DNA of 64,000 nucleotides from positions 558,001 to 622,000 of the forward strand of contig PPNB01000002.1 in NCBI GenBank assembly GCA_003707115.1. Reading direction: 5' to 3'. The position numbers were made by a program, and so were the translations under genes. The notes under the pieces are model-generated. The model searched no databases. It saw only the letters and a program-made list of their open reading frames with translations, and was not told the DNA's origin. This DNA is from Tortispora ganteri (lineage: Eukaryota). The first letter of the stretch is position 1, and every line of letters starts with the position of its first letter. Shown in pieces: positions 9,138 through 46,116 of the stretch.

Positions 9138-10928
9138 CTAGAACTGTATCAGCTGGAGAATATCCTCGGGAATATCTACCTGCATTCCTGAATCCATTGA
9201 GGGAGACGCCGCTTGTCCACTGGCGCTCGCGTTCAGCATCGGGCCCGTGTTAGTAAACATGCCCACGTCGTTCTGCGGTTTTATTGGTCCAAGTTCGCCA
9301 GTATTAAGAACATTAGATCCAAAATTAGGGTCAAATAAATTTGAAGTGACACTCGTATTGTTCGGTTGAACACCAAATGTACTTAGTGACCGCTGTTGCT
9401 GCAGTGGTTGAGATTGTTGCTGTTGTTGGCGCATTTCTCTCTGTTGAATTTGTCTTTGTTGCATTTGTCTTTGTTGCATCTGTTGCATATAGTTGGCCAC
9501 CGCGCTAGGATCCTGCCCTTCGCGCGAAAATTGATCGCGGTTGTTTCCTGCTTGACTAGCGTTAAACGTAGATCTCGGCAGCAAAGGTTTTGGGCCTGAC
9601 TGAGACATTTGCATCTGGTCTAATGTGAGCTGATTCTGATTTGGTTGTTGTGATGACGAGCGAAACCGTTGCATTTGTCGTAATTGGTTCTGCAACATAT
9701 CCACTTGGCTTGCAGCCGGGTCCATCTGTTTGCTATGATCTTGCGGTCCATCTATCCTCATATCATTTGGCTGTTTGTTCATGGTCCGCGGCATGCCGGT
9801 TGCACTAAACTTTCCTTGCAGATCACCCTGAGTCAGTGGAAACCCCTGAATGTTCTGTGGAAGCATTTGCTGGTCTTGGTCAAACATCATAGATTGCTGT
9901 GAGACATCTCTTAACATATTTCCTTGAGACACATAACCTTGCGGGTTCTGCTGATTAGTACGAGTTCCAGAGTATTGGTCGACCATTATTTTCGGTATCC
10001 CGGAATCTGTATTCACAGGCAATACGTTCATTTGCTGAGTATATTTAGGATCAATTTTTGCCTGGAACTGTGTCGATCCAGCCATATTTTTGTTGGCAGA
10101 TTTTGGCGGCCGTCCAGGCTTTGCTTTCCTAGCCACAGGTGCAGGTGATGAAGCAGGCGGTTGTTGAAGGTTGAATTGATTTCCTTTCATGTCCATGTTC
10201 ATGTTATTCATGTTCACATTGTTTGCGCCTATGTTCATGTTATTCAAGTTCACATTGTTTGCACCTATATTCATATTGCCCATATTCATGTTGTTCATGT
10301 TCATATTGCCTATATTCATATTGTTCATGTTCATATTGTCCATATTCAAATTGTCCATAGTCATATTGCCCATATTGTTCGTATTCACGCCCACACGATT
10401 CATATTGTTCACGTTCACATTATTAGTACCCATGTTGTTCATATTATTCATGTTATTCATATTGAAACCATTCATGTTCATGTTAGCGGCGTTCGTGCCA
10501 AGTTTCAGGCCTTGAGTGAACCCGGGTTGCGATAACGGTTCCTTCCTAGCGACTGGTCGCGGCGGGATATTCATTCTGTAAGGCATCTTTGCCGTTGGAT
10601 CAAAATCATATGGTAAAATTCCAATGTTCTGGAAGATTCGAATGAGCTTCGCATAGCAAGGTATCAGCGACGGTACCTCAGGAGGAGCTGTGAGAATGCG
10701 CGGAGGATTGATAGGTGGTTTGTTTACATTTTCTGTAGATTTTCTTGGGAAATCGCTAGAAAGACCGGCAATAAATGACAAGTTCGCTTCTAATCGAGCC
10801 ATACAGCTGGCGAAAGTCGGATCAACGATCTTTTCGGGGAAATTGCATCGATCGTATCCGTAAGTTGCTTCTCGCAGCAGCACGCCGTTGATGCCTAAAA
10901 TAAGTTGAACAGCCGCCTTTTCATCCAT
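9138..10928 (-). CDS. Low-complexity N/M/Q-rich protein with a putative N-terminal SSXT/SNH (SS18/Snf11-like) domain
   Basis: 596-aa ORF. N-terminal VQLILGINGVLL...CMARLEANLSFIA..S...PP.ILTAPP...YAKL..IF pattern, followed by Met-Asn repeats and Q-rich tracts. Confidence 0.6.
   Translation of the reverse strand: MDEKAAVQLILGINGVLLREATYGYDRCNFPEKIVDPTFASCMARLEANLSFIAGLSSDFPRKSTENVNKPPINPPRILTAPPEVPSLIPCYAKLIRIFQNIGILPYDFDPTAKMPYRMNIPPRPVARKEPLSQPGFTQGLKLGTNAANMNMNGFNMNNMNNMNNMGTNNVNVNNMNRVGVNTNNMGNMTMDNLNMDNMNMNNMNIGNMNMNNMNMGNMNIGANNVNLNNMNIGANNVNMNNMNMDMKGNQFNLQQPPASSPAPVARKAKPGRPPKSANKNMAGSTQFQAKIDPKYTQQMNVLPVNTDSGIPKIMVDQYSGTRTNQQNPQGYVSQGNMLRDVSQQSMMFDQDQQMLPQNIQGFPLTQGDLQGKFSATGMPRTMNKQPNDMRIDGPQDHSKQMDPAASQVDMLQNQLRQMQRFRSSSQQPNQNQLTLDQMQMSQSGPKPLLPRSTFNASQAGNNRDQFSREGQDPSAVANYMQQMQQRQMQQRQIQQREMRQQQQQSQPLQQQRSLSTFGVQPNNTSVTSNLFDPNFGSNVLNTGELGPIKPQNDVGMFTNTGPMLNASASGQAASPSMDSGMQVDIPEDILQLIQF
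10180..10490 (-). repeat. Degenerate coding minisatellite encoding (Asn-Asn-Met)-rich repeats
   Basis: Recurrent gttcat/attcat units on the + strand; protein reads NMNNMNMGNMNIGANNVN... Confidence 0.85.
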
Positions 10929-11311: not shown

Positions 11312-13660
11312 TTAGTAGGTAATAGTGGCTGAGACATCAGACTTGCCAATTATTGTGGAGGTTGCTGAACCTGCAATTTTGATGCGCCAATCAGATTTCA
11401 TTGTTCCATCAACTTTGACAGAGATATTGCGACCTTTTGGTGACAGAATGATTGTCGCAGCAATCTCGCCGAGCTTTTCCTGGTGTGGAATTACAACAGT
11501 CATATCTGTAGTGCTGTCTTGTGCAGGGTTGACAAGCACAGTGAGACCGTCAGTCCAGTCATAGTCTCGCTTGGTTTGGCCAATAGCGATCGCCGTGCCT
11601 GGACGAAGTAATAAAGGGATTGAGAAGTAGTTGTGAGTCTCGCTGATGTAACCGGGACCTATACGGAACTTTTCATCTAGTATGCCGTACCATTTACCCT
11701 CAGGGACGTAGTATTGCACATCACCTTCGTTGTTGAATATAGGTGCTACTAGCAAACGATCGCCAAGCATGTATTGAGTATCAAGGTTCCAGCATGCGGG
11801 ATCTTTATCGAATTCCAGGAACATTCCACGCAAGATTGGGGTTCCGTGTGAATGCGCGACAAGAGCCTGACTATAAATGTACGATCGTAACGTGTGCTTG
11901 TTGTCGACAAAGTATTTTAAGACTTTGTCGGCCTCACCCGTGTTATCGATAAGCCATGGAGCGCGGAATGACCCGGATCCATGCAGACGAGAGTGTGACG
12001 ATAATAGTCCGAACGCGATCCAGCGCTTGTAGAGTCCCGGGTCAGGATTACCTTCGAATCCACCTATATCGTGTGCCCAATAACCGAAACCGGTCAAACC
12101 AAGACTAATACCGCCGCGCAGCTGCTCAGACATTGCCTCATATGTCGAGAAAGGGTCACCACCCCAATGAACAGGGAATCGTTGAACGCCGGCAGTAGCG
12201 GATCTTGCAAAAACAGCCGCATGATTCTTGCCGTACTTCTTTAGTAGAACTTCAAAAACAACTTTGTTGTATAGAAATGGATAATAGTTGTGCATACGCG
12301 CTGGATCCGAGCCATCATGATACACAACATTGCCAACAGGGATACGTTCACCAAAATCAGTCTTGAATGAATCTACGCCGATATCGCAAAGAGCTTCGAG
12401 TTTCGATTGATACCATGCAACAGCTTCAGGATTAGTAAAATCGACAAATCCCATACCAGCTTGCCAGAAATCATACTGCCAAACACCGCCATCAGGGGTC
12501 TTAAGGAAGTACCCATTCTTTGCACCTTCATCGAACAATTTACTTTCTTGAGCGATATAGGAGTTAATCCAGACACAGATATGTTTGCCACGTTGTTTAA
12601 GACGTGCTAGTTGTGCCTTTGCATCAGGGAAGAATTCAGCATCAAATTCAAAGTCACACCATTGGAAACCTTTCATCCAGAAACAGTCATAGTGGAAAAC
12701 GTCAAAATCGATTTCACGGTCGTGAAGGCCATCAATAAAAGAGTTGACAGTGTTTTCATCATAATTTGTGGTGAAAGATGTGGACATCCATAAACCAAGT
12801 GTCCAAATTGGAGGTAATGCAGGCCGACCTGTCAAAATAGTATAGCGGTCGATGATTTCCTTTGGTGATGGCCCATACACTATATACGCGTCAAGTTCTT
12901 CACCAGGGATAGCAATATTGACACGTGCAGTTCTTTCACTTTGAAATTCATATGACAAACGAGCTGAAGAATTAATAAATACTCCGTATCCACGGTTAGA
13001 AATATAAAAAGGAACATTTTTATAGGAAATATCTGAACCTGTTCCACCATCTTCGTTAAACAGATCAATTGATTGACCGTTACGGATAAGCGGGCCAAAT
13101 TTCTCGCCCAGTCCATAGATTTTTTCACCTACACTCAACTGGAACTGATAAGTAGTATACCGAGATCCTTTTAATGGATCAGTGTACTGCGCTTGTGGGT
13201 TTGTAGCGTTTGTGTTGTCTTTAATATAGCCAAACGAACGCCAGCCCAATTTAGTTAGAAGTTTGCCTTCGCCTTTGATCTCAAGACTGTACGATTTTTG
13301 TGCGGTATTAATATCAACAGCGAGAGGACCTGCATTCATATGTAGACCATTTTCGGATTTTGATGTAGAGATCTTATTATTTTGTGGTTGTTCATCAGGG
13401 AACAGCTCAAAGAAAGGACCTTTACGTGAATTTGCCTGCGCTTTCCAATGATAACCAAATAACCGTAAAGTATTATCAGCAGGTGAACTGACTTCCATAG
13501 TCAATGTCGGATTGTTCAAAGTATCACCTCTAAAATTAATAGGTTTAGAACAACTCATGGCATACAACGAATCCTCGCGAGCTTCGCCCTTAAACACTTC
13601 GGTCGCCCAATCGATAACGACACCTACTCTTGTATGCCAGCATCCATCAGTGAATTTCAT
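11312..13660 (-). CDS. GH31 alpha-xylosidase, YicI/AgdD type, intracellular
   Basis: MKFTDG.W start, YGLGEKF, YKNVPFY, GLWMSTSFTTNYDE, VFHYDCFWM, nucleophile motif FKTDFGERIP, acid/base HWGGD, HDIGGFE, SHSRLHG; no signal peptide. Confidence 0.9.
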   Translation of the reverse strand: MKFTDGCWHTRVGVVIDWATEVFKGEAREDSLYAMSCSKPINFRGDTLNNPTLTMEVSSPADNTLRLFGYHWKAQANSRKGPFFELFPDEQPQNNKISTSKSENGLHMNAGPLAVDINTAQKSYSLEIKGEGKLLTKLGWRSFGYIKDNTNATNPQAQYTDPLKGSRYTTYQFQLSVGEKIYGLGEKFGPLIRNGQSIDLFNEDGGTGSDISYKNVPFYISNRGYGVFINSSARLSYEFQSERTARVNIAIPGEELDAYIVYGPSPKEIIDRYTILTGRPALPPIWTLGLWMSTSFTTNYDENTVNSFIDGLHDREIDFDVFHYDCFWMKGFQWCDFEFDAEFFPDAKAQLARLKQRGKHICVWINSYIAQESKLFDEGAKNGYFLKTPDGGVWQYDFWQAGMGFVDFTNPEAVAWYQSKLEALCDIGVDSFKTDFGERIPVGNVVYHDGSDPARMHNYYPFLYNKVVFEVLLKKYGKNHAAVFARSATAGVQRFPVHWGGDPFSTYEAMSEQLRGGISLGLTGFGYWAHDIGGFEGNPDPGLYKRWIAFGLLSSHSRLHGSGSFRAPWLIDNTGEADKVLKYFVDNKHTLRSYIYSQALVAHSHGTPILRGMFLEFDKDPACWNLDTQYMLGDRLLVAPIFNNEGDVQYYVPEGKWYGILDEKFRIGPGYISETHNYFSIPLLLRPGTAIAIGQTKRDYDWTDGLTVLVNPAQDSTTDMTVVIPHQEKLGEIAATIILSPKGRNISVKVDGTMKSDWRIKIAGSATSTIIGKSDVSATITY

Positions 13661-13775
13661 ATTTGCAGTTTATTAGTAGAAGATACTGTAAGTATGAGCT
13701 GGATTAATACAAATGTCTATTATATGTATGAGACAGAAGTTAGGAACAATGAGCATTGGAGTTCCCGCTAGTTCA

Positions 13776-14673
13776 GGCTAAAATAGATCTTAAAAGTTTA
13801 TTTAAGTTAAACTTTATTATACTCAGGCAAAAATCTGGGGTAAACCGTTTAGTAGGAAAGTTACTCGGCTCTTAAAAGCTTTAAAGTGCATTAATGAGAG
13901 ATGATTTAGTGAAATGTGAAAGGAGAATAGCACGCGAGAACAGAGATTGGAATTTATAGGTTACTATACTATTTCGTGGGGTTGAAGCGGTTAATATATT
14001 GTATAACATGAGAACGACAATTGAGTTAATGCTTTGATTATTGAACTGTATGAGACTAGATTTTATAATTAATCGTATTAAAATTAAGCTAGTTGTAGGT
14101 AAGAGTCACTCAAAAGATTTCAAAAGATTACTATATATGTAACAGAATGATAAAGATATGTATCTATATGTAGGTATAGTAGGTATAGTAGGTTAGTAGT
14201 TATAAGTATCTATAAGTATCTATAAAACACGTAACTTGTACTATTAATCGTAAGTTCACGGAACTAATCTAATCATCTACACGACGATCGATAATCGGAT
14301 ATTTAGTATAATATCACATGAAGGACGCTTAAATTCATGGAAGAACCCTTCAAAAATCGGATAAATTAAGAAACTCCCAAAACCTGTCAAAAGATTAATA
14401 TACAATTATGATTGGCTGAGAAATAAAGGCTCACCGGTTAAATAAAAAGTTTAATTTCAAAATTATATGAACTATACAATCATCTTTAAACCTTTACACC
14501 ACCAAATTTACCGTGATTAAGACTTCACCGGGTATTTTGAGAATCAGTAAGGCTAAATAACGGGAACTCTCGTTTTCTCATTTAATCATTTTATCCAATA
14601 AAATCAACTTCTCTCTCCGATATCTCCCCTTTTAGACTCATTTGCCCCGGACTCTCCCCACAAAATACCCCAC
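13776..14673. promoter_or_regulatory. Divergent promoter with Mig1/CreA-type SYGGGG boxes and GGCTAAA motifs
   Basis: AAAAATCTGGGG (core 13835-13840), GTGGGG 13976-13981, CCCCAC 14656-14661 and 14668-14673; GGCTAAA at 13776-13782 and 14551-14557. Confidence 0.5.
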
Positions 14674-14835
14674 ATAGAGAATCTTAAATAGCCTGTATAC
14701 ACTGCGCATCTTCTCGGTTATTGGCTCTCCGGTCTTTCTTATTTAAAACTTAAGTTCCGATCTACTTTACACACACCTATATATATAAACTAGGTCGTCT
14801 GCATCTTCCCGCAACACAACAGACTCGATTTAAAA

Positions 14836-16353
14836 ATGTTCAAGTTTATATCGCGAGGAATCAACGGCTATACTTGGGGTATAGCCATATTCGCGTCTGT
14901 AGGCTCTATGCTCTACGGTATCGACTCCGGTATCATATCCACTACCATCGGTCATGATAGCTTCCTCGAATATTTCGATCCCTTCACGCCAAATATCAAG
15001 GGCGCTGTAGTGTCTACCTTCTCTGGCGGTGCCTTTGTTGGTGTCATTTTTGCCGGATGGGCTAACGACTTCCTCGGACGCAAAAAAACAATCTACGTTG
15101 CTGCGTTCATATCGCTTGTCGCAGGCGCAATACAAGCTGGCTCCGTCAATGTCGGTATGCTCATCGCTGGCCGTATTATTGGCGGTTTCGCTGTCGGTAT
15201 CCTCAACTGTATTATACCTATCTATGAGTCAGAGATCTCTCCGCCTGCACACAGAGGCCTCATTTCCGGTCTCCATTCGCAGTTCGTCGGTATCGGTTTT
15301 GCTGTAGCTAACTGGGTCGGTTTCGGTTGTTCATACGCTTCAGGTGATTTCCAGTGGAGATTCCCACTTGCTTTCCAGTGCATTCCCTCTTTGCTAATGC
15401 TTGCAGGTACTTGGGCGCTCCCTGAGTCTCCACGTTGGCTCATCGAAAAAGAACGCGAAGAAGAGGCTTACCGTGTCATCAAGCGACTCCACTCCAACGC
15501 ACTCGATGAGACTCTTTACAAGGCAGAGTTCAACCAAATCCGCGAACAGCTCCGTTTCGAGAAAGCTTCCAATGCCAAATCATGGAAAGAACTCTTCTAC
15601 AAGAAGAGCAACCGCAAACGTCTTATGCTTGCTATGCTGGTCCAGGCTTTCACGCAGTTAACCGGTATAAACGTCATCAACTACTATCAGATCAGCATCT
15701 ACAACTCCCTCGGCATGTACGGCCACATGGCTCAGGCCATGGCAGGTATATATGGTCTCTGTGGACCCGCCGCCAATTTGGTTTGTATATTCTTCGTTGA
15801 CAGATGGGGTAGAAGGATCACATTGATTATTACCTCGTTCTTGCTTGCTATCGACATGTCTATCGTTATGGCTCTTATCGCGACAGTCGTCGATGGCGGC
15901 AACAACAAAGCCGGCCAAGGTTTCACTGTCTTGTTCATCTTCATGTTCTCAGTCATATATTCACTCGGATATAACGCTATCCACTATATTTACGTACCCG
16001 AGATCATGAACCAGGCTGTCCGAAGCCGCGGTACCGCTATCGCTACAGATACCAACGTTGCCATCAATGTTTTGCTCAACCAGGTTTCACCTATCGCTTT
16101 TGCACACGTACAATGGAAGTACTATTCGCTCTTTATCGCCACGAACTTCACTGGCGCTTTGGTTGTTTGGTGGCTGTTCCCTGAAACCAAGGGCAAGACT
16201 CTCGAAGAGATCAACGAGCTATTCGGCGATGAAGTCATGATCACACTCGATGAAGCTGCACAAACAACTTCCGATGAAGATCTCCTGGACGAAAAAGTTG
16301 TTGATGCAGAGCATAAAGAGACTACTATCAAAAAACAGACTCAGCATGCTTGA
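14836..16353 (+). CDS. MFS sugar porter
   Basis: YGIDSGIIS, DFLGRK, GRIIGGFAVG, YESEISPP..RG, WRFP, PESPRWL, QLTGINVINYY, DRWGRR, PETKGKTLEEI. Confidence 0.93.
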   Translation: MFKFISRGINGYTWGIAIFASVGSMLYGIDSGIISTTIGHDSFLEYFDPFTPNIKGAVVSTFSGGAFVGVIFAGWANDFLGRKKTIYVAAFISLVAGAIQAGSVNVGMLIAGRIIGGFAVGILNCIIPIYESEISPPAHRGLISGLHSQFVGIGFAVANWVGFGCSYASGDFQWRFPLAFQCIPSLLMLAGTWALPESPRWLIEKEREEEAYRVIKRLHSNALDETLYKAEFNQIREQLRFEKASNAKSWKELFYKKSNRKRLMLAMLVQAFTQLTGINVINYYQISIYNSLGMYGHMAQAMAGIYGLCGPAANLVCIFFVDRWGRRITLIITSFLLAIDMSIVMALIATVVDGGNNKAGQGFTVLFIFMFSVIYSLGYNAIHYIYVPEIMNQAVRSRGTAIATDTNVAINVLLNQVSPIAFAHVQWKYYSLFIATNFTGALVVWWLFPETKGKTLEEINELFGDEVMITLDEAAQTTSDEDLLDEKVVDAEHKETTIKKQTQHA

Positions 16354-16499: not shown

Positions 16500-17819
16500 C
16501 TAATCATCACGGTGTACGTTTAGAGAATCGTTGTGTGAAGTCGACTTTCTAGCGACACCCTCCGATCGGTCTGGCCGTGCTACTGATATCACTGTTCGTC
16601 CGAAAGCAATACCAGGATGCGCTACAGTCAGCACTAGACATGCCAGGAAAAGCATGAGTCCGTCCAGCACAAGGAAGTACCCTTCTTCGACCATGAGATA
16701 ACCCCTCCATCCTCCACCAAGTTCAAATAAGCGATAAACACACCGCGTGAAAATGAACAAAACAGCAACAATAGTGCCTATTATAAAGTACTTGAAGAAT
16801 GGTTTCCTGGTATGTGCCAGCAGTTCCGGATATAGTTTGTATGAGGAAACATCAGTCGTATTTTTTGGTTTTTCTGACATTTCAGAAACCAGTTGATCAG
16901 CAGAACTTTGCGGTTCCTGCTCAGTTTGTTTATCTACAGGATAGTTATCAAGAACTGCTGTATAATAGCCCGCTTTATAGGCCCGCCTTATTCTGAAGTA
17001 CACCAGAAGAGAAACAAGCATAAACAGAACCATTACAGCAACCTGCAAAGCAATACCTGCAATCATGACGTTCGTGCCAGGATCGACGTTTTCATAGTTC
17101 TGTACAGCGACGGCGGCCATTCCGCCGCCCACACCTTGGAGCACGAGACAGCCTATATCGAGGGCAATGAAAACATAAGAGTAGGTAGCCGGTTTAAAAT
17201 GAGAGACAAGATTTTGGCCGTATATGACGACAATTTTTCCTACTATATTGTAAATACCGCCCATCATGAATGCAGGTGCAATTGTGAGGCAGATTATCTG
17301 GACCAGGAACGGATTGATTTGCCACGGGCGATAATGTGACACGAGACGGGCGACGTAACCGGTGGTTTCGAGGGCACAACCAACGACTAGAGCTGTGCCA
17401 AACCACCACTGAAAAAAGTAGCATCCTATAGCGAGATGAATGGCTGTAAGAATGCCGAAAAGAATAGTTCCTGCGAGGTTGGAATCGAAGTCGGGCGTGT
17501 AGTCATAAACTTCGTAATCAGTGTACTGAGAAGCGGCATAATCAAGTAGAGGGTTGATAGCGTTCAAAGTGGATGCTAAAGTGGGATCAATATTGACAAT
17601 AGTATATGCGAGTCCAGGATCGATAGTTGTCATTGTGTATACGGCATTAGGGTCGAATTCGGTCATTGTTGCGAATGCCGGATTTGCAGAAACGATTGCT
17701 CCGGCAAGATCCGACAATTCCGACATTGTAGCCAGTTTCGTATTTGCAGCGGTAAGTTCGCTCATGAGCGGGAACCATGTTGCTACGGCCGTAGCTGAAA
17801 CTACAGAAGTGATACTCAT
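16500..17819 (-). CDS. RTA1/Rsb1-family lipid-translocating exporter
   Basis: Y.Y.P, LETTGYVAR, QIICLTIAPAF..GIY, FIALDI.CLVLQGVGGGMA, G.NVMIAGIALQ, RCVYRLFELGGGW.G.L..E.YF.VLDG, HPG. Confidence 0.9.
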   Translation of the reverse strand: MSITSVVSATAVATWFPLMSELTAANTKLATMSELSDLAGAIVSANPAFATMTEFDPNAVYTMTTIDPGLAYTIVNIDPTLASTLNAINPLLDYAASQYTDYEVYDYTPDFDSNLAGTILFGILTAIHLAIGCYFFQWWFGTALVVGCALETTGYVARLVSHYRPWQINPFLVQIICLTIAPAFMMGGIYNIVGKIVVIYGQNLVSHFKPATYSYVFIALDIGCLVLQGVGGGMAAVAVQNYENVDPGTNVMIAGIALQVAVMVLFMLVSLLVYFRIRRAYKAGYYTAVLDNYPVDKQTEQEPQSSADQLVSEMSEKPKNTTDVSSYKLYPELLAHTRKPFFKYFIIGTIVAVLFIFTRCVYRLFELGGGWRGYLMVEEGYFLVLDGLMLFLACLVLTVAHPGIAFGRTVISVARPDRSEGVARKSTSHNDSLNVHRDD

Positions 17820-19063
17820 TTGTATAGATCGGTAAACCGGGAAGTTTCGCCGTTCTTTTCAAATGGTGTTTATTTGTGCTATTTTTTTTTTCGTAGACCT
17901 AATACGATAATACTTTTCTTTCTTTGATATAAAAAAGAAAAAAGACGAAATATTCGTCTAAAAACCAATGATAAATTAAAAAAAAAAATGGCCTTTTAGT
18001 TTATATACAAATAAGTGTTAATGTGATGTGTTATTCTCGTGTGGGTAATCCAATAAGAAAATCTAATCAAACTTTAAATAAAGTTAGAATAGTTGGCCGC
18101 CATAAACACTATATTGCACTGTTTGTATAACGAATGGACAAAAATGTGCTCTAAGTAAGTAAAGTAATATTTAAAAATATTATTATTAATATGTGTTAAA
18201 ATAGTATACCTCTTTAGTGCATCATTAGTGAACAATTTGTAGTGAAGAATTTACTACCCAATCACATTGCGGCAGAACTGTATCTGTTAAGACTAGCCAA
18301 TAAATTACTCTAGTTAGAAAATAAGGTTTACAGATTATAGATCCACTAATCATTGATCTTTTTTCTGTAATTGCGGCTTAGCATTTAGACTTGTATATTA
18401 CACTTAAATATGTCAGCATTTATTTGAACGAACAAAATGTCAGTTAAGGCTTAGAGGAACCTATACCGGTTTCGGGTACTGTTTTTTCCGGACATCTAAA
18501 CTCTCTTTATGTTAGAGTTTTACATAAGAAACGCCTTCCCTTCATCAAGATGCACCTACAACACACCAACTAAAGGCTACACGTTTATTAAAACAGCGAA
18601 TGATGACTTGTTGTAAAGGATTAAGAAGTATAATACGTTTATAACTGAGAGGTCCACAATTGAGAGCAAATTTGAACAAAAGTGAGTTGTGGGGGGTATA
18701 CGGACGAAGCCTAGACCCAGCTTGTTAGCCCTGTAGATCTATAGTCTTACTGCACATGACTGTCTGATACTGCTTACTTTATTTATATAAGTATTAATGT
18801 ACTTATCACTTTACTGATATGGTACTGAATTATTCAATCGATCTGTCGAAATAGAATAGGTCATTTCGACAATGCACCCCATTGGTTAATAAAGCAGAAT
18901 AAAGTTTGATGAAGCAACTCATCGCTTAAGTCCGCTAATTTCCGTTTCTCCCAGAACCATACCCCTTCTCTGATCCACGTTTTTCCACTTTTTATCCCAT
19001 AAGACATAGATACCGACACAACACCTCTACGACTCTTATTTGTAGTTTTACTACCGGACAAAT

Positions 19064-21814
19064 ATGACCGAGGAACTATATCCAAGACGCCGTAATCGTG
19101 TCCCTGTATCATGTGCACCATGTAGACTTCGCAAACTAAAGTGCGATCGATCACGGCCATCTTGCGGGTCATGCATACGCAGGGGCATTATTGATCTCTG
19201 CATCTATGAAGAAAAGTCACGGATTCAGAAGTATGAGAACAACGACATTAAACGACATGACCATGTAGTTGTTAAAAAGATCAACTCTATTGAAGTTCAG
19301 GACGAACTCGATTTTAAGGATTTGCCCGTTGCATTAGATCAAGAACATCTCGAAACATCCCCACTTGACGCAATCGCACCACTAATGTATAACGTCGCAA
19401 AGGCAAGATCTTATATGCGTCAATCATATGACCAGAAACCTTTATCGCCCAACTGTGATGATCTCTTACAACTTAAGGAAGAGAACGCCCGTCTAAAGCA
19501 AATCGTTGAGTCCTTTATCAATTCCGCCAATTCATTAACTTCAGAAAGCACAGTTAGTACAATTCCTTTCGATTTGCCTTCTTTCAGTACCCCGCAAGAA
19601 ACTGCTTCTACTTCCTCAACTTACAAATCTAGCACAGACAACTCCCCGCAAACTCCCGAAGATACAGACATCGAAATACAGTCTATTGCTAACAGACTGG
19701 GGACTCTCAAACTGAATTCTAGCCACATAAGGTACTATGGACCTTCCTTCTTCTTCAGCTTGTTTTTCATCGACCCGGAACTCGCAAGAATCTTTCCTAT
19801 ATACATGCAGTTTAAGCGCCGCGTCCACCGCACTATCGATTGCATATGGAAGGGCTTCGATGTACAGACATTTTCGCAACACGCAAAACCTACAAATCTC
19901 CTGCCGGAAGACAAGGTTCAACAATATGAATCCGATATACTCCGCTCACATCCTCATAATTTTCTTATACCGAAATCTGTCCCCACTGATGATATTGCAG
20001 GAATGATGTCAATCTTCCCACCTCGCCAGGTCTGCAATTTCCTCTTTCAAAGGTTCCTCTCTCATGTTTACCCTATATATCCCTACATTGACGTCGCAAG
20101 GTTTAGCTCACTTACTGAGTCCTCATGGGCCGCTTACAATAACGGCAAAGCTAACAGTATTCAGCGCTATTGGCTAGGTACGTATGCCATCATGCTTACA
20201 CTTGCTAGACTATCTTTGCCTTGTTCATGGTATTACGCGGAAAATCCTAATGAAACGACAGGACCTCATTACCATCTTGGAGAAGAGTATCCGACAATTG
20301 CAAAAAATTGCTTGTTCTACCACAGTAAGCTCGACAGAATACCAATCTTAGGCTTGCAATGTGTATTATACCTCCGTATATACAACAGAATTGCGCCTGG
20401 TGATGGTGATATCGGTGACTTTGAACTGTCTCCGCTTCTGCATGGAGTTGCTGCTGAAATCGCGCTGGGCATAGGTATGAACAGAGACCCTTCGTTTTAT
20501 TCACAGCTTCCTGAATCACTTTATCTATCTTGGAGAAAACTGTTCTACGATCTCTGCTACCAGGATGCTTACCAGAACTTAGTCTCCGGAAGGTATCCTA
20601 GACACGATCTTGCGAACTCAGATTTGAAGATCCCTTCCTTATCTGATATACAAGTCGGAGTCAACTGCCTGAATATGAGCAGCGAGTCTCAGTTGCTTTC
20701 ATTCTACGCCGCGAAAGCCCAAGCTACCACAATAATGCGTCGCGTTGCAAGCAAGTTAAACAGCATTCAACCAGAATCCTTTACACATGCGCGGATTAAG
20801 GCTGAACTTCGTGATATTAACGACTTCTTGTCTAAACAGGTCTTGCCTACAAGTATCGTCATTACGAAAGGCCCATCTGAGTCTTTAGCCGATACAATTG
20901 TTCGTGTTAGAAACTTTGAATTGATCGCAATGATGAGCGTCACAAAAATTTCACTTGCAATACAGCTGATCAACAAATCAAAGACGTTGGCTTCGCCATC
21001 TGAGTATTTGGAAGATCTCTGCGAAGCAAGAGCTTATGCACATGAGGCTCTCGAGATAATTGCTGCTTCAATGAAAGAGGAATGTTTCCCCAATTTCACT
21101 TTCATTACTTTTCCAGTGTGCGTCAGACTTCAACTCACGACAATGTTTGCCATAACTTCAACTGCTTTAAAAGTACACCTATACGTCGGCAATGTCATTG
21201 ATCCTCATACCGATCAGCCTATCTATCAAGAACTTCGGGAAACATTCGAGTTGTCTACATTAATTGCTAAAATGCTGACTGATAAGGCAAAGACTTCGTT
21301 TGCTGCTTGGAGATGCGCTTCTTTAACTCAGATTTTGGCTTTTATTTCAAAGGAGATTCTGAACAAAAAAGGCTCAATTTTAGCGGCACCTAACCAAGCT
21401 GAGGAGGCACCTCAGAAATTAAACGCAGATAATAATGATTTCTTAATGGAGGATTTGGATTTTTCAATTGCCGATGAAACTAATATGATCGGAGAGTTCA
21501 TGGTTCCACAATTCAAAGATCAAAGAAGCTCATCCTCTGGCTATTACAGCGCTTCTTCTAACAGCATTCCACCGGATCCACCCAATCAATTCAACAATTC
21601 TAATCATCAAACTATCAAAGATATTATGGGCGACAGACTGGACCAAGAGTCTGCTTTTTACAAACAGGTTTTCTTTGCTAACCCTCAGGAGAATAATTCT
21701 TCATTGATTGATCCTAATAATGATTCGTTTGATATGGTGCCAACGGATATCGAATCACAAATTAATTTGTTCACTGAAGATGATTGGAAAAACTTTGTAT
21801 ATAGCCAGACATAA
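19064..21814 (+). CDS. Zn(II)2Cys6 transcription factor with fungal TF middle-homology region
   Basis: RRRNRVPVSCAPCRLRKLKCDRSRPSCGSC...C.Y (Mrr1/Hap1/Oaf-like N-terminus); ALGIGMNRDP and WRKLFYDL..D; acidic C-terminus. Confidence 0.9.
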   Translation: MTEELYPRRRNRVPVSCAPCRLRKLKCDRSRPSCGSCIRRGIIDLCIYEEKSRIQKYENNDIKRHDHVVVKKINSIEVQDELDFKDLPVALDQEHLETSPLDAIAPLMYNVAKARSYMRQSYDQKPLSPNCDDLLQLKEENARLKQIVESFINSANSLTSESTVSTIPFDLPSFSTPQETASTSSTYKSSTDNSPQTPEDTDIEIQSIANRLGTLKLNSSHIRYYGPSFFFSLFFIDPELARIFPIYMQFKRRVHRTIDCIWKGFDVQTFSQHAKPTNLLPEDKVQQYESDILRSHPHNFLIPKSVPTDDIAGMMSIFPPRQVCNFLFQRFLSHVYPIYPYIDVARFSSLTESSWAAYNNGKANSIQRYWLGTYAIMLTLARLSLPCSWYYAENPNETTGPHYHLGEEYPTIAKNCLFYHSKLDRIPILGLQCVLYLRIYNRIAPGDGDIGDFELSPLLHGVAAEIALGIGMNRDPSFYSQLPESLYLSWRKLFYDLCYQDAYQNLVSGRYPRHDLANSDLKIPSLSDIQVGVNCLNMSSESQLLSFYAAKAQATTIMRRVASKLNSIQPESFTHARIKAELRDINDFLSKQVLPTSIVITKGPSESLADTIVRVRNFELIAMMSVTKISLAIQLINKSKTLASPSEYLEDLCEARAYAHEALEIIAASMKEECFPNFTFITFPVCVRLQLTTMFAITSTALKVHLYVGNVIDPHTDQPIYQELRETFELSTLIAKMLTDKAKTSFAAWRCASLTQILAFISKEILNKKGSILAAPNQAEEAPQKLNADNNDFLMEDLDFSIADETNMIGEFMVPQFKDQRSSSSGYYSASSNSIPPDPPNQFNNSNHQTIKDIMGDRLDQESAFYKQVFFANPQENNSSLIDPNNDSFDMVPTDIESQINLFTEDDWKNFVYSQT

Positions 21815-22018
21815 ACGATTACCGCCTTTACTGAATTCTTGGTCGTTGTATTTGATATCATCACCTCTTCACTCTATGTTGTAAATATGAATATTCTACA
21901 AAACTTCAAAGATAAAAAAATAAGATCACAATCTATTATATGTACCATCATATGAAAAAAAATTATTTATAGAGAAAAATGAAAGAATGTCTATCCAAAT
22001 GAGCTAAACAAAATCCAA

Positions 22019-25000
22019 TTATTCGTTTTTAACTCTGTCTTTCTTTTTAGGCACACGCGCTAACCAATAGAGGAAAACAGTTCCAATGTAGTTAAACGCG
22101 ATGAAACAAATAAAAATTCCAATGTTTCGCCATGCTTGTGAATACAATGCATCAATAGATTCCAGGAAGACATTCGTTGAGGACATAGAGCAAAAGCTGC
22201 ACTCGGTAGCTGCGGGGTCGAGAACATAACCTCCAGCCAATGACATGTATGTAGACAAATATTCCTCGCAAGTGGTACCCGGAACAGCTTCAAGACTAAC
22301 GTATTCATAGCTGGCACACTCAACTGTAGAGTCTGCTAAACCAACACTAAGAACACCTTGAATGAAGTAAGTGAGTGGATTGCATCGATACATGAATATC
22401 CAAAATCCAGGAAGACCATCTTTTGTAACAAGAACACCACAAAATGCCAAACACAAAGTAAAAAGTAAATTAGCAATATTAGCAGCATTCTCCGCAATCT
22501 CAATACCAGCAACACACAACTGTCCCATAGACGTCGAAAAGATGAAGAAAGCTGAAACGAAGAAATACATCATACCGCTTCGATGAGTAACACTGTCGGT
22601 TAGTTCTGCATTACGATACAATCCCACAGGGTAGTACCAAGACAAGAATGACAGGGTACCAACAATAAGCTGCCAGGGAATCTCAACAGTCATCTGTGCG
22701 GCTATAAAAGCCTTCCAGCTAAATGTCTTTGAAGGACGTTCACGAACCTCATATAACGAGCGTTGCTGCACATAATACGGCAACATCTGTTGCACAATAT
22801 TGTTGAAAATAATCGTGAACATGAAAACGGAAAACATCTGATTCTGTAGTCCTTGCAAAGTGTTGTCAGCCTTAAAGAATGAGAAACCATTAAACAATGC
22901 AGAGAGAGTACACAAAGTAAGCTTAGCCCAGATATAAGACGGTGAGCGCCAATATTGCTCAAAGACTCGTTTAGTAACATAGATATATTGCCTTAAAAGA
23001 GGAGCTGCAAACTCGCGCTTATTCTCAGGACTCTCATCAATGGGTAATTTAGAAAGTTCTTCTTGCATTTTATCCAATTCGGCTCTAACAGCAGCACGTT
23101 CTTCAGATTGGAGCCACACTTGATGGTAATCCTGAGAAGCCTTAGATCCAGGAGCAGCACCAATTACTTCCAACATCCATTCTGTAGGGTTAGCATCATG
23201 AGGGCAAGGAGGAGCACCATACTTTTCGAAGTAGCCGGTCAACGTAGAGGAGTTTTCTCCGATATCTCCAAAATAGACAGTTTGTCCTCCACGAGCCAAA
23301 AACAATAAACGGTCAAATTCTTGAATTAAAAGAGCTGAAGGCTGATGAATAGTGCAAAGAATGGCCTGTCCAGAATCGGCAAGCTTCCTAAGTAACTGAC
23401 AAACAGACCAGGCAGTTTGGGAATCAAGACCAGATGTAGGTTCGTCAAGGAAGAGAAGCAGTTGAGGTTTCGCAGCAAGTTCAACACCAATAGTTAGACG
23501 CTTGCGCTGCTCCACATTCAGACCTTCACCAGCAACACCAACCACGGCATCGGCATAAGGAGCCATATCCAAAATTTCAATAATGTCATCAACGTAACGG
23601 ACCTTCTCATCGTAAGGAATGCTGCGTTCTTGTCGCAAAACAGCACTAAAAAGAAGAGCTTCACGCACTGTAGAAGTGGCAAGATGCAAATCTTGCTGTT
23701 GAGCATAACCTGTGCTGCGTTGGAAAGATTCGTCGCGCAAGTGACCGTTAACATACATACCACCAGTAACAACACCCATTGTCACACGATTAGCCAAAAC
23801 GTCAAGCAAAGTAGTCTTACCAGCGCCGGATGCACCCATTAAAGCAGTCAAAGTACCGGGCTTAACCCATCCATCAACGTGGTCAAGAAGACGACGAGGC
23901 TCACCTTTAATCTTAATATCGTAGCAAACATCTTTCCAGTGGAAGATATCGGTACCGGTTTGAATAACGTGACTCAGGTTCTCATGATTGGCAAGATTGG
24001 TAGTAGTGCGAGCAGCAAGAAGTTCATCAACTTTAGCTTCTTCGTCATTCTGTAACATGGCTTTGCGTTTCCTGTTAAGTTTCTTCAAATAAGATCTCTG
24101 GAACAGTAAGATTTCTCCTTTCTGTCGAGTACCTTGATTCAATTCGACGGCTACAAAATAAGCGATCAGGAAAAAGACAGCAAAAGCAACACCAATACCC
24201 CAGTTACGCCATAAGTGAGAGTAAGTGTAACGGAACGATTCCCAGATATAATCAGTGCCCAAAACTGAAGTAGCACCAGGAACAGCGGAAACAGCACTGC
24301 AGACAAAATAAGGGTCGCCTGGTTGCAAACCATTCGTACCAGGGCCCGCAGGAATGTAACTCGAACAAGGGAATTCGCGATTATGAAACTCTATGGAGAT
24401 CAAGTTCTCGAACATGTAAGCTAGTGGATCAAGATAATTAATCCACCTGGACCAACCTAACATGCTTCTAGTAGGAATGACGAAGCCAGTGTAGATAACC
24501 AAAGCCAACATTAGCAGAGAGGCTGGGGTCATAGCAGCTGCCAGTGAACGGGTACAAGCTCCAATGAAACGGAAAACGTGAGACATAATCAAAGTGGCCG
24601 TGAATACATTCAACAAGTACAGGAAGAATGCACCAGGTTCTCTTCGAAGATTAGCCATGAAGTATAACGTCAAATTGAACACAATACTAACTATTATTTT
24701 TTGAGGCATTTCAACAATGACAGACGCGACAGCATCTGCAGAAGGATGATAAAGAGCATATTCTTTATGTTTTTCCACAATCGGTCGACCTTCATACAAT
24801 GCAAAAATTTCCAGGAGCGATGAGAAAGCATTGAACAATACAGCAAAGAACAAAGCAGCTGTACGAAGGTAAAAAGATCCAGTATCATTCGGCAAATTGT
24901 AGAATATAGACCCAAGAATTAAAGCCATGATAGTATTTCCAAGTGTACCTGAAAGAGGCATAGTAAGATCACTGAGAGTACGTCTAATACCACGGCGTAC

Positions 25001-31821: not shown

Positions 31822-32640
31822 TCATGGCAGTCTTCTGCCCATACTTTCGATGAGAAGTATACCGCCAAATACTGGACCTTCGTTGCGTATAGCCTTTGCT
31901 GTTTTCCATGGGATTGGAGCAATAGATGAAGATTGCAATAAAGTAATGATGTGATGTGGTATCTGAGGAAATTCGTGGAATATGGAGCCTGTGAATATTA
32001 TATTTTGCAATAACTTAGCGCGCGAGTCGTAGTTGAGGCTATTAATACATTGTGTTATAGCTGCAACCAAGGAAGAGTCACCCGGCTCGTCTGAAATGGA
32101 ATCGCGAACGAATATAGATTGGACGTGATCGTAAGTGTAATCGGGTATCTTGTGGAGAAGTGAAAGTCCACGATGCACAAGCACTTGGTTTGATTGCATA
32201 ACTCTTAGGTCATAGACAGGTGTAACAGTAGAGATAGACCAGTCTACATGCACTACAAGAGCGTTCCTGGAGCCTGCGGAGATCGCAGCTAGGGACGGGA
32301 GAGGGTATAAAGTGAAAGAGGAAACGTATAATCGAGATTTGAGAACATGGATCAGCACATTTTTGATTGGATCAGTAAGTTCCATTGATTCACATACCAA
32401 TACTTTAATTTTATCAGACGAGAGGTTCAATTTGTATAGAATTGAGCGGATAAGTTGATATATGGCATTGAGTGTATTAGTGCGATCAAAAGCTAAAGGA
32501 GTGTCGTAAATTTGCGTGTAAGTAAACAAAGGTGCCTGTGCGGGGAAAAATAATGTTTCGCAGGATCCAGAAACACCAGCAGACACGCCATTTGATGAAA
32601 TTTGGATCACCAATACGGGTGAATGGCGCTTCGATACCAT
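31822..32640 (-). CDS. Divergent actin-related protein (Arp10/Arp11-like)
   Basis: VLVIQIS...AG.SG, KVLVCES, AAISAG.RNALVVHV.....VTPVYDLR, D.RAKLLQNIIFTG. Confidence 0.65.
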   Translation of the reverse strand: MVSKRHSPVLVIQISSNGVSAGVSGSCETLFFPAQAPLFTYTQIYDTPLAFDRTNTLNAIYQLIRSILYKLNLSSDKIKVLVCESMELTDPIKNVLIHVLKSRLYVSSFTLYPLPSLAAISAGSRNALVVHVDWSISTVTPVYDLRVMQSNQVLVHRGLSLLHKIPDYTYDHVQSIFVRDSISDEPGDSSLVAAITQCINSLNYDSRAKLLQNIIFTGSIFHEFPQIPHHIITLLQSSSIAPIPWKTAKAIRNEGPVFGGILLIESMGRRLP

Positions 32641-45117: not shown

Positions 45118-45487
45118 CCGCCTCTTAGTGCAAGTACTAAATGCAACGTAGCCCCACCTTGTATACCGTAATGACGCGCATCTTCCATATCGTTCATTTG
45201 TTTGCCACCAAAAATAAGTCGTTGTTGAGAAGGTGGTATACCTTCTTTCTCTTCAACTTTCTCTTTAATTTGTGATATCTGTCGTTAGTAGTTGGTCCGT
45301 CAACTTCAAATTCAAATATTTACCTTGTCTGATGCCTCAATATCAAGTGAGATCTTAAACAATGTTAGTCTCAAGATTTCACCATTATTAATATTTTAAA
45401 CCTACCTCTTTTCCAGTCAATGTCTTTTAGTTAGTATTGATTATTCAGTGTTAATAATTATTCACTTACCTTCACTTTGACCTGCAT
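45114..45487 (-). CDS. RUB1: NEDD8/Rub1 ubiquitin-like protein, 76 aa; exons 45487-45470, 45423-45406, 45353-45324, 45278-45114
   Basis: Absent from the ORF track. Three introns of 46, 52 and 45 nt (donors GTAAGT, GTAGGT, GTAAAT; ACTAAC branches). Spliced product: [76 protein letters not shown]. Ala72 is the NEDD8 signature. Confidence 0.95.
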
Positions 45488-45612
45488 GGTTGTGGAGTGC
45501 TGGGAAAAATAGGCCCCCAGTAGTGCAACAAAATCACTTTATAATAGCAAAAACTACACTAGAAAGTCACTTATTCATTAATTTCATTCAATTCATAATA
45601 ATAATCTCAAAT

Positions 45613-46029: not shown

Positions 46030-46116
46030 GACTTTGACAAGCTCTTAAAGTGAAGCAAGTGTGTCTCTCTTGGGACTGGAAAATGTTAGTCCCAAAACAA
46101 CTCAGCTTCATCTGAA

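What the first reader, a model, noticed from the sequence alone, without database searches (positions are those of the whole stretch)
11312..16353. Divergent alpha-xylosidase + sugar porter pair: candidate isoprimeverose/xyloglucan-oligosaccharide uptake and hydrolysis module in a yeast
Seen: an intronless YicI-type GH31 enzyme without a signal peptide sits head-to-head with a sugar porter, sharing a 1.2-kb promoter, while housekeeping pairs here share 64-290 bp. Known: this hydrolase-permease layout matches MAL (maltase/permease) and Kluyveromyces LAC4/LAC12; E. coli yicI is paired with the transporter yicJ; YicI hydrolyses isoprimeverose. Inference: the porter imports an alpha-xyloside that is cleaved in the cytosol. 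That would be a little-characterised yeast route, and the porter a candidate isoprimeverose transporter.
Basis: partly seen in the sequence, partly recalled or inferred. Interest (0 to 1): 0.8.

Follow-up and report, generated by a model that had tools for sequence, protein, structure and literature searches.

The report
Fungal alpha-xyloside uptake gene pair
A yeast carries a sugar transporter gene head-to-head with a gene for an internal enzyme that cuts alpha-linked xylose off small sugars; the same pair sits together in many other fungi, which makes the transporter a testable candidate for the still unidentified fungal importer of such plant-wall sugars.

Summary
Confirmed. A 782-aa YicI-type GH31 (11312-13660, -) and a 505-aa sugar porter (14836-16353, +) share a 1175-bp divergent gap in a Tortispora-like yeast. 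Both belong to discrete fungal clades whose trees mirror each other. Of 37 named species in which both genes were listed, 33 have them on one contig (22 with consecutive accessions) and 4 do not; linkage is mostly unseen in Agaricomycetes. The gap holds 6 XlnR-type GGNTAAA sites (0.98 expected), the orthologous gap of a filamentous fungus 5 (0.46 expected), and the genome's xylose reductase gene ranks next among 117 genes. The genome has a xylose pathway, but no GH12, GH1, GH35 or beta-glucosidase-type GH3 was found, so XXXG is unlikely. Best reading: xylose-induced H+ symport of an alpha-xyloside disaccharide, cleaved in the cytosol (about 0.85); isoprimeverose as the substrate about 0.55. 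The enzyme clade has Pro after the acid/base Asp and no characterised member that I could place, so another alpha-xyloside is a live rival. The layout is known (MAL, LAC, S. stipitis YIC1-MAL5); this pairing was not found in print in 10 searches. Nothing was assayed.

The parts
11312..13660 (-). GH31 YicI-type (subfamily 3 by inference) cytosolic alpha-xylosidase candidate, 782 aa; nucleophile D435, acid/base D502; clade marker P503
13661..14835 (.). Shared divergent promoter region, 1175 bp, 33% G+C
13776..13782 (+). GGNTAAA (XlnR-type) site 1 of 6
13835..13844 (+). Overlapping SYGGGG (CreA/Mig1-type, motif recalled) and GGNTAAA site 2 of 6
13976..13981 (+). SYGGGG (CreA/Mig1-type) site
14359..14365 (+). 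GGNTAAA site 3 of 6
14436..14442 (+). GGNTAAA site 4 of 6
14551..14557 (+). GGNTAAA site 5 of 6
14590..14596 (-). GGNTAAA site 6 of 6
14645..14673 (-). Three SYGGGG (CreA/Mig1-type) sites in tandem, 160-190 bp upstream of the porter
14778..14789 (+). TATA-like element upstream of the porter
14836..16353 (+). Sugar porter (MFS, SP family), 505 aa; D30 and R113 kept (proton-coupling pair by alignment); clade-specific Y375, H383, V408; highest GC3 and C3 of 29 window genes

Best explanation
The two genes are an uptake-and-hydrolysis module for a small alpha-xyloside, most likely the disaccharide isoprimeverose (Xyl-alpha-1,6-Glc). Steps: (1) other organisms in decaying plant tissue release the disaccharide from xyloglucan (inferred); (2) xylose, through an XlnR-like Zn2Cys6 activator bound at the shared promoter, induces both genes, and glucose represses them through CreA/Mig1-type sites (motifs shown, regulation inferred); (3) the porter imports the intact disaccharide by H+ symport (family and conserved D30/R113 shown, substrate inferred); (4) the cytosolic GH31 removes the alpha-xylose by the retaining double-displacement mechanism with D435 and D502 (residues shown, activity inferred from YicI); (5) xylose enters the reductase/dehydrogenase/kinase route found in the genome, glucose enters glycolysis (genes shown, flux inferred). 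Confidence is about 0.85 for 'alpha-xyloside module' in general and 0.55 for isoprimeverose as the main substrate.
For: Enzyme: NF007940 1000 bits over cut-off 606, glucosidase models under cut-off; 23 of 29 listed YicI positions identical, including D185, F277, D306, C307, F308, W345, K414, D416, F417, R466, W479, D482, F515, H540 (the roles of F277 and C307/F308 in xylose-versus-glucose choice are recalled). Linkage: 25 species by accession or locus tag, 22 consecutive and 3 within 2-3 numbers; 8 more named species share a contig length; head-to-head at about 1.25 kb in DNA of a Helotiales-like fungus, L003. Trees: both genes form supported fungal clades (73 rows, 100; 48 rows, 99) with matching subgroups; distance correlation 0.86 over 20 pairs, 0 of 2000 permutations reach it; both genes of one Lipomyces kononenkoae pair nest in Eurotiales (100/100 each). 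Promoter: GGNTAAA, the XlnR motif as written in PMC4021826, 6 in the gap against 0.98 in shuffles (1 of 5000 reach it) and 5 against 0.46 in L003 (0 of 5000; 1 site in the other 16.5 kb); among 117 own-genome genes the porter has the most sites in 600 bp (4), xylose reductase next (3), GH31 and xylulokinase 2 each, mean 0.45. Genome: xylose reductase, xylitol/sorbitol dehydrogenase and xylulokinase relatives; an XlnR-like regulator (likeness recalled). Literature: A. oryzae AxyA is an intracellular GH31_3 enzyme with Km 0.2 mM for isoprimeverose (PMC10792220); import plus intracellular cleavage was proposed for fungi and called unproven (PMC3652757).
Against: No assay or expression data. The enzyme clade has Pro after the acid/base Asp in 72 of 72 rows, against 0 of 125 other close relatives (107 Cys), and K379, D49, Y484 and A485 of YicI also differ, so the aglycone site may differ. 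No A. oryzae, A. niger, A. nidulans, Trichoderma or Neurospora name appears among the clade's rows or the members looked up; the listed A. niger and A. flavus porters fall outside the clade, so known isoprimeverose producers seem to lack this pair. No GH12 and no IpeA-type GH3 was found in the genome, so the yeast would depend on neighbours. 4 of 37 species have the genes on different contigs, and only 1 of 24 named Agaricomycete species with the enzyme shows linkage. Tree mirroring partly follows from shared species history. Several motif spellings were tried; GGCTAA alone was not significant (2 against 0.46, p 0.07). A. oryzae AxyC shows that a fungal intracellular alpha-xylosidase can ignore isoprimeverose.
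Confidence: 0.55

Rival explanations
1. Same module, different alpha-xyloside: the pair imports and cleaves a non-xyloglucan substrate such as the Xyl-alpha-1,3-Ara side chain of glucuronoarabinoxylan, or an alpha-xyloside not yet described.
For: Clade-wide Pro at 503 and an aromatic or Met at 504 next to the acid/base residue; the clade is separate from three other fungal YicI-type clades; the porter clade has its own fixed residues in helices 10 and 11 (Y375, H383, V408); Xyl-alpha-1,3-Ara exists and needs a GH31 enzyme (PMC7176698); AxyC and MeXyl31 point to unknown natural alpha-xylosides (PMC10792220); XlnR-type control fits xylan fragments as well as xyloglucan.
Against: The characterised YicI-type enzymes named in the papers read (AxyA, TmAxy31) act on isoprimeverose; xyloglucan is the main source of alpha-linked xylose in land plants; an arabinose-using route was not checked in this genome.
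Confidence: 0.27
2. The porter carries free xylose or another monosaccharide, and the two genes are linked only because both belong to the xylose regulon.
For: The porter keeps Q149, Q274, N279 and N411, the equivalents of monosaccharide-binding residues of STP10 (alignment; residue roles recalled); the ESM Atlas neighbours include a cluster named STL1; XlnR-controlled xylose porters exist (XtrD, PMC4021826).
Against: A cytosolic glycosidase needs its substrate brought in; the pair has stayed adjacent across Saccharomycotina and five Pezizomycotina classes and appears to have moved as a unit, which co-regulation alone explains poorly, since the xylose reductase and xylulokinase genes carry the same motif and lie on other contigs. 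Several binding-site positions are changed (T273, G310, N380, H383, Y384).
Confidence: 0.09
3. The enzyme is an alpha-glucosidase (maltose, isomaltose, kojibiose or nigerose) and the pair replaces the MAL system.
For: The genome has no GH13 maltase: the two GH13 matches are weak and look like glycogen branching and debranching enzymes; a distant YicI-like archaeal protein proved to be a glucosidase (26% identity, PMC5745559); CreA/Mig1-type sites are present.
Against: F277, C307 and F308 of YicI are kept in 72, 71 and 72 of 72 clade rows; glucosidase models score far below cut-off; the promoter motif ties the pair to xylose genes.
Confidence: 0.05
4. The porter imports larger xyloglucan oligosaccharides (XXXG type) for stepwise cytosolic breakdown.
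For: TmAxy31, a YicI relative, is active on XXXG (PMC12144081).
Against: No GH1 or GH35 match; the only GH3 carries a GNAT domain, which fits a GlcNAc-sensor type protein and not a beta-glucosidase (type recalled); the two GH5 matches are weak. The assembly has 1044 contigs, so absence is not proven, and filamentous carriers of the pair may differ.
Confidence: 0.04

Closest known systems
Scheffersomyces stipitis YIC1-MAL5 (PMC2784038, passages and part of section 11; PMC10500205, passages)
   Same: A YicI-like GH31 gene divergent from a sugar permease gene in a budding yeast; substrate untested and suspected to be something other than maltose.
   Different: The S. stipitis enzyme (P0099, taken to be YIC1) lies in another clade, with Cys after the acid/base Asp, 50% identical; its partner is a maltose-permease-clade protein, and no S. 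stipitis protein is among the 120 best porter hits. The two pairings look independent.
Yeast MAL, LAC12-LAC4 and CEL1-CEL2 permease-hydrolase pairs (PMC10500205, passages)
   Same: Divergent permease plus cytosolic glycosidase on one promoter; sugar porter family.
   Different: Different hydrolase family and porter clade; not subtelomeric as far as the contig shows (position 569-574 kb of a contig that runs past 700 kb); the review describes those pairs as mostly lineage-specific, whereas this one is shared by early-diverging yeasts and Pezizomycotina.
Aspergillus oryzae AxyA and A. nidulans AgdD (PMC10792220 parts 1-3 of 4; PMC12144081 passages)
   Same: Intracellular or leaderless YicI-type fungal alpha-xylosidases; AxyA prefers isoprimeverose and is induced by xylose or xyloglucan oligosaccharides.
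   Different: Neither sequence was in hand. Neither species appears in the window enzyme's clade; they probably belong to one of the Cys-type Pezizomycotina clades represented by P0337 and P0339 (inference). No transporter is named for them in the papers read.
E. coli yicI-yicJ and Lactobacillus pentosus xylPQ (xylPQ known to me from recall and a reference title)
   Same: alpha-Xylosidase next to a cation symporter; 43.9% identity of the enzymes.
   Different: Tandem operon; YicJ is a GPH-family transporter with no similarity to the porter (best E = 3.0).

Membership tests
GH31 YicI-type alpha-xylosidase (subfamily 3) | N-terminal beta-sandwich, TIM barrel and C-terminal beta-sandwich; score over the family cut-off | tested here: met
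   PF13802, PF01055, PF21365; NF007940 1000 bits, cut-off 606. CAZy's own subfamily models were not available.
GH31 YicI-type alpha-xylosidase (subfamily 3) | Catalytic Asp pair and -1 subsite residues | tested here: met
   D416 to D435, D482 to D502; D306, W345, K414, F417, R466, W479, F515, H540 identical.
GH31 YicI-type alpha-xylosidase (subfamily 3) | Residues that favour xylose over glucose (F277, C307, F308; roles recalled) | tested here: met
   F296, C326, F327 in the window; kept in 72, 71 and 72 of 72 clade rows.
GH31 YicI-type alpha-xylosidase (subfamily 3) | Aglycone-side residues as in YicI | tested here: inconclusive
   W8, R44 and D185 kept; D49 to N, K379 to F, C483 to P, Y484 to F, A485 to S. 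D49 is Asn in most relatives too; P503 is specific to this clade.
GH31 YicI-type alpha-xylosidase (subfamily 3) | Hydrolysis of isoprimeverose or pNP-alpha-xyloside; oligomeric state | not testable with these tools
   Needs an enzyme assay.
AxyA/AgdD orthologous group | Orthology to A. oryzae AxyA or A. nidulans AgdD | tested here: inconclusive
   Sequences not in hand; the species are absent from the clade rows; three other fungal clades exist.
Sugar porter (SP) family, MFS | Family score, two-domain 12-helix fold, cytoplasmic motifs | tested here: met
   TIGR00879 314 bits over 237.8; model pTM 0.82; best fold matches STP10, STP6, GLUT3, XylE, TM about 0.8.
Sugar porter (SP) family, MFS | Proton-coupling Asp/Arg pair | tested here: met
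   D30 in 43 of 47 clade rows (4 gaps), R113 in 46 of 47; role by alignment to STP10 and GlcP, recalled.
Maltose permease or LAC12/cellobiose porter clades | Placement among the characterised yeast disaccharide porters | tested here: inconclusive
   No protein named as a maltose, lactose or cellodextrin permease among the 120 best hits, 39% identity and above; no reference sequences were in hand for a tree.
GPH family (YicJ, XylP) | Score on TIGR00792 or similarity to YicJ | tested here: not met
   No GPH model among 19 NCBIfam matches; best E = 3.0 against YicJ.
Permease-hydrolase gene pair (MAL/LAC/CEL kind) | Adjacent divergent genes, kept together in relatives | tested here: met
   Divergent in the window and in L003; adjacent by accession in 22 species, near in 3; orientation unknown for those.
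Permease-hydrolase gene pair (MAL/LAC/CEL kind) | Co-induction by the shared substrate | not testable with these tools
   Only promoter motifs could be counted.
XlnR regulon | GGNTAAA enrichment upstream | tested here: met
   6 against 0.98 and 5 against 0.46.
XlnR regulon | An XlnR orthologue in the genome | tested here: inconclusive
   L142:907-3276 (-), 789 aa, Zn2Cys6 plus Fungal_trans; its zinc cluster and C-terminus match XlnR as I recall it; the Atlas and PDB gave only generic names.

The most novel reading that the evidence does not exclude
The pair defines an unrecognised fungal pathway: a dedicated alpha-xyloside:H+ symporter clade and a Pro-type GH31 clade, coupled since before budding yeasts and Pezizomycotina split (or spread between them as a cassette), controlled by an XlnR-like activator that survives in an early-diverging yeast, and acting on an alpha-xyloside other than isoprimeverose.
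Probability: 0.25. Interest if true: 0.78.

Novelty: new variant of a known kind. Interest (0 to 1): 0.58.

Why it matters
Fungi were proposed to import isoprimeverose and cleave it inside the cell, a scheme called unproven in PMC3652757, and no fungal transporter for it turned up in my searches. This finding names one porter clade, marked by three independent signals (linkage, mirrored trees, promoter motif), that can be tested with one heterologous expression experiment. If right, it gives the first fungal alpha-xyloside transporter that I could find, a two-gene cassette that would let S. cerevisiae use the xylose and glucose left in isoprimeverose by commercial cellulases, and an example of a CAZyme-poor yeast feeding on fragments released by others. 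If the substrate is another alpha-xyloside, it defines a new specificity inside YicI-type GH31.

Tried and rejected
Gap length as evidence: rejected, 4 of 9 other divergent gaps in the window are 457-1244 bp. CreA/Mig1-type sites: enriched against shuffles (5 against 0.34) but common upstream of other genes (15 of 117 have 3 or more in 600 bp) and not enriched in L003 (3 against 1.87), so weak. GGCTAA and GGCTRR spellings: not significant (p 0.07 and 0.06). The neighbouring Zn2Cys6 gene at 19064-21814 as the regulator: rejected; it sits between an RTA1 gene and a PDR-type ABC transporter and no such neighbour is seen in L003. Recent transfer from bacteria: not supported; the enzyme groups with Dikarya proteins (100) inside a mostly fungal group (95), and its GC3 of 0.38 is within the window's range. 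Homology of the porter to YicJ: rejected. Metagenome scan: 79 loci, of which 1 (L003) held the enzyme beside the porter; most were other sugar porters or too short. Placing AxyA or AgdD: not achieved, neither came up. Earlier scan notes: nothing in 4 look-ups. Literature on growth of Tortispora on xylose or disaccharides: nothing useful. Search for locus tags of two orthologues and three recalled tags gave one paper, on AN0280, whose clade I could not establish. Two papers were not held. GH74, GH2 and an arabinose route were not searched. The first tree run did not finish and was redone by a faster method. No supplementary files were read; transcriptome supplements of species that carry the pair could bear on induction.


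Full report
1. Observation. The window holds an uninterrupted 782-codon ORF at 11312-13660 (-) and a 505-codon ORF at 14836-16353 (+), head-to-head across 1175 bp. The first has the three Pfam domains of GH31, scores 1000 bits on the NCBIfam alpha-xylosidase model (cut-off 606) and stays under both alpha-glucosidase cut-offs; its best solved relatives are YicI proteins. It aligns with E. coli YicI from the first residue, 43.9% identical overall and 57.8% in the barrel, and has no hydrophobic leader. The second is a sugar porter whose model (pTM 0.82) matches STP10, STP6, GLUT3 and XylE. The nearest named proteins are from Tortispora caseinolytica, 95% and 92% identical and of equal length, so the genome is a Tortispora-like yeast of 9.6 Mb in 1044 contigs.

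2. The pair is conserved. The porter's relatives fall into a discrete clade (48 rows with the window, support 99), and the enzyme's into another (73 rows, support 100). In 25 species the genes are neighbours: consecutive numbers in 22 (T. caseinolytica; Myxozyma melibiosi, Dipodascopsis uninucleata, Lipomyces kononenkoae; three Morchella; Knufia, Exophiala, Rhinocladiella; Zopfia; Dactylonectria, Mariannaea, five Clonostachys; three Aspergillus; Malbranchea) and 2-3 numbers apart in 3 (Phialemonium, Talaromyces rugulosus, Cylindrobasidium). Eight more named species share a contig length only. Four species have both genes on different contigs (Amniculicola, Tephrocybe rancida, Hymenopellis, Amylostereum). 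That is 33 of 37 named species in which both were listed; species with only one gene listed are not counted. Against universality: of 24 named Agaricomycete species with the enzyme, 1 shows linkage, 3 do not and 20 have no porter of this clade listed. Orientation is known only for the window and for L003, the 1 of 79 metagenome loci that held both genes: head-to-head, about 1.25 kb apart, with introns, from a Helotiales-like fungus (87% to a Cadophora protein).

3. The two genes share a history. Over 20 pairs the tree distances correlate at 0.86, and 0 of 2000 permutations reach that; shared species history explains part of it. More telling, one L. kononenkoae enzyme and its neighbouring porter both nest inside Eurotiales (100/100 in each tree), away from the other Lipomycetales copies; forcing Lipomycetales together is rejected for both genes (AU p 1.5e-5 and 3e-10; the group was chosen after seeing the tree). 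The pair either moved as a unit or the contig is a contaminant. The window's own genes branch deep in their clades, and the porter joins Lipomycetales with modest support (89/80), which fits vertical descent. A wider tree of 67 rows shows four fungal YicI-type clades: this one, a clade of Serinales, Wickerhamomyces and Trichomonascus proteins, and two Pezizomycotina types represented by Fonsecaea and Nemania proteins. There is no sign of a recent bacterial origin.

4. Enzyme anatomy. Of 29 YicI positions listed, 23 are identical, among them both catalytic aspartates (D435, D502), the -1 subsite residues and F277, C307, F308 (active-site set as in PMC5745559; the specificity roles of the last three are recalled, the paper itself was seen only as a reference title). 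That argues for xylose at -1. The differences lie on the aglycone side: the residue after the acid/base Asp is Pro in 72 of 72 clade rows and in 0 of 125 other close relatives (107 Cys, 15 Ser), followed by Tyr, Met or Phe. The leaving group may therefore differ from that of YicI and AxyA.

5. Porter anatomy. D30 and R113 are kept throughout the clade and align with the proton-coupling pair of STP10 and GlcP (role recalled). Q149, Q274, N279 and N411 match sugar-binding positions, while T273, G310, N380, H383 and Y384 differ from the monosaccharide porters; Y375, H383 and V408 are among 21 columns fixed in the clade (47 rows) and rare in 73 outside rows. This shows a conserved, distinct pocket, not its ligand. 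The gene has the highest GC3 and C3 of 29 window genes, which suggests selection for high expression.

6. Promoter. PMC4021826 gives the XlnR motif as GGNTAAA. The gap holds 6 copies, against 0.98 in 5000 dinucleotide shuffles (1 reaches 6) and 0.63 expected from the other 11,265 intergenic bases of the window. In 600 bp upstream of 117 genes of this genome (those in hand, not a random set) the porter has 4, the most; the xylose reductase gene has 3; nine genes, among them the GH31 and the xylulokinase gene, have 2; 28 have 1, among them the dehydrogenase gene; 78 have none. The L003 gap holds 5 against 0.46 (0 of 5000 shuffles), with 1 in the remaining 16.5 kb; 12 control stretches upstream of other porters held 0-3, eight in all. 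I tried five motif spellings; GGCTAA and GGCTRR alone were not significant. A Zn2Cys6 protein of 789 aa on another contig looks like XlnR to my recall; the tools named it only generically. CreA/Mig1-type sites are enriched against shuffles (5 against 0.34) but are common elsewhere in the genome.

7. Genome context. Xylose reductase, xylitol/sorbitol dehydrogenase and xylulokinase relatives are present. No match was found for GH12, GH1 or GH35; the single GH3 carries a GNAT domain; the two GH13 and two GH5 matches are weak and do not look like a maltase or a xyloglucanase; the only other GH31 has a leader and resembles glucosidase II. The assembly may be incomplete, and GH74 and GH2 were not searched. 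On this evidence the yeast cannot make or finish xyloglucan oligosaccharides, but could live on a disaccharide that others release. Nine sugar-transporter-family matches were scored in the genome.

8. Mechanism. Most likely: xylose-induced, glucose-repressed expression of both genes; H+ symport of an intact alpha-xyloside disaccharide; cytosolic cleavage; xylose into the oxidoreductase route. Shown: genes, residues, linkage, motif counts, downstream genes. Inferred: regulation, transport substrate, enzyme activity, ecological source. About 0.85 for an alpha-xyloside module, split into 0.55 isoprimeverose, 0.27 another alpha-xyloside (Xyl-alpha-1,3-Ara of glucuronoarabinoxylan is a real candidate, PMC7176698; AxyC has an unknown natural substrate) and 0.04 larger oligosaccharides; 0.09 for a monosaccharide porter linked by regulation only; 0.05 for an alpha-glucoside module.

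9. What is known. It works like MAL, LAC12-LAC4 and CEL1-CEL2 (PMC10500205) and like bacterial yicIJ, but YicJ is a GPH transporter unrelated in sequence. Intracellular fungal alpha-xylosidases are characterised: AxyA is GH31_3 with Km 0.2 mM for isoprimeverose (PMC10792220), and AgdD is YicI-like (PMC12144081); I could not place either, and their species do not appear in this clade. A divergent YIC1-MAL5 pair is in print for S. stipitis (PMC2784038), but with another enzyme clade and a maltose-type permease, so fungi seem to have paired a YicI-type enzyme with a porter at least twice. Import of isoprimeverose by a fungal disaccharide transporter was called unproven in 2013 (PMC3652757). Searches that bear on novelty: isoprimeverose + alpha-xylosidase + intracellular + transporter, 7 papers; isoprimeverose + Aspergillus + AxyA, 2; sugar transporter + alpha-xylosidase + fungi + gene cluster + GH31, 4; sugar transporter + fungi + isoprimeverose, 0; locus tags, 1; yeast + xyloglucan + GH31 + Saccharomycotina, 5 with 4 listed. 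None of the listings or passages read describes this pair or a fungal isoprimeverose transporter; the yeast transporter review has no mention of xyloside, isoprimeverose or xylosidase. The library lacks most subscription journals, so this is not proof of absence.

10. What was seen of each paper. PMC10792220: parts 1-3 of 4. PMC11975219: part 1 of 2. PMC2784038: passages and part 1 of 2 of section 11. Passages only: PMC3652757, PMC10500205, PMC4021826, PMC12144081, PMC7176698, PMC5745559, PMC4967831, PMC8254220, PMC3526510, PMC12411881, PMC11182611, PMC10833146. Not held: PMC10074150, PMC7059301. No supplements were read.

11. Verdict. A real feature and a new variant of a known kind: a permease-hydrolase pair with an uncharacterised porter clade and an uncharacterised GH31 clade, conserved across Ascomycota and marked as part of the xylose regulon. 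It is not surprising in design, but it makes an open question directly testable. Interest 0.58.

Noticed in passing
L142:907-3276 (-) = G000:C668: A 789-aa Zn2Cys6 regulator whose zinc cluster and C-terminus resemble XlnR/Xyr1 as I recall them; such a regulator is usually thought of as a filamentous-fungus trait (recalled). The xylose genes of this genome carry the matching motif.
   Followed up: partly
L155:3722-9264 = G000:C2: The xylitol/sorbitol dehydrogenase-like and xylose reductase-like genes lie 3.5 kb apart, with a 728-aa zinc-cluster-like gene and a small GTPase gene between them.
   Followed up: partly
P0062 and P0152 (KAK9367892, KAK9367893): A Lipomyces kononenkoae GH31-porter pair nests inside Eurotiales in both trees: transfer of the pair as a unit, or contamination.
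   Followed up: partly
P0059, P0060, P0063 and P0146, P0149, P0150: Lipomycetales hold a second enzyme subgroup and a second porter subgroup that mirror each other in the trees, as if the pair had duplicated; their adjacency was not checked.
   Followed up: no
window 16500-26509: RTA1-like gene, Zn2Cys6 regulator and PDR-type ABC transporter side by side, with 1244- and 1247-bp upstream gaps rich in CGG: a likely drug or lipid efflux unit.
   Followed up: no
window 9138-10928 (-): 596-aa Asn/Met/Gln-rich protein with an imperfect repeat region and no Pfam match; possibly a transcription coactivator subunit.
   Followed up: no
L082:1453-3960 (+) = G000:C446: The only GH3 match in the genome is a GH3 plus GNAT protein; with no GH1, GH12, GH35 or GH13 maltase found, the genome looks very poor in sugar hydrolases.
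   Followed up: partly
P0074, P0077, P0080, P0085, P0092, P0099, P0289, P0295: A separate YicI-type clade is widespread in Serinales, Wickerhamomyces and Trichomonascus; in S. stipitis it is paired with MAL5, which is a second untested candidate for an alpha-xyloside porter.
   Followed up: partly
window 41144-42650, 31822-32640, 45118-46116: Long gaps and partial ORFs (an actin-like fragment, a 138-aa ORF) suggest small or intron-containing genes that a plain ORF list misses.
   Followed up: no
L115 = G000:C613:12501-12860: An alcohol dehydrogenase match with an in-frame TGA: an intron or a broken gene.
   Followed up: no
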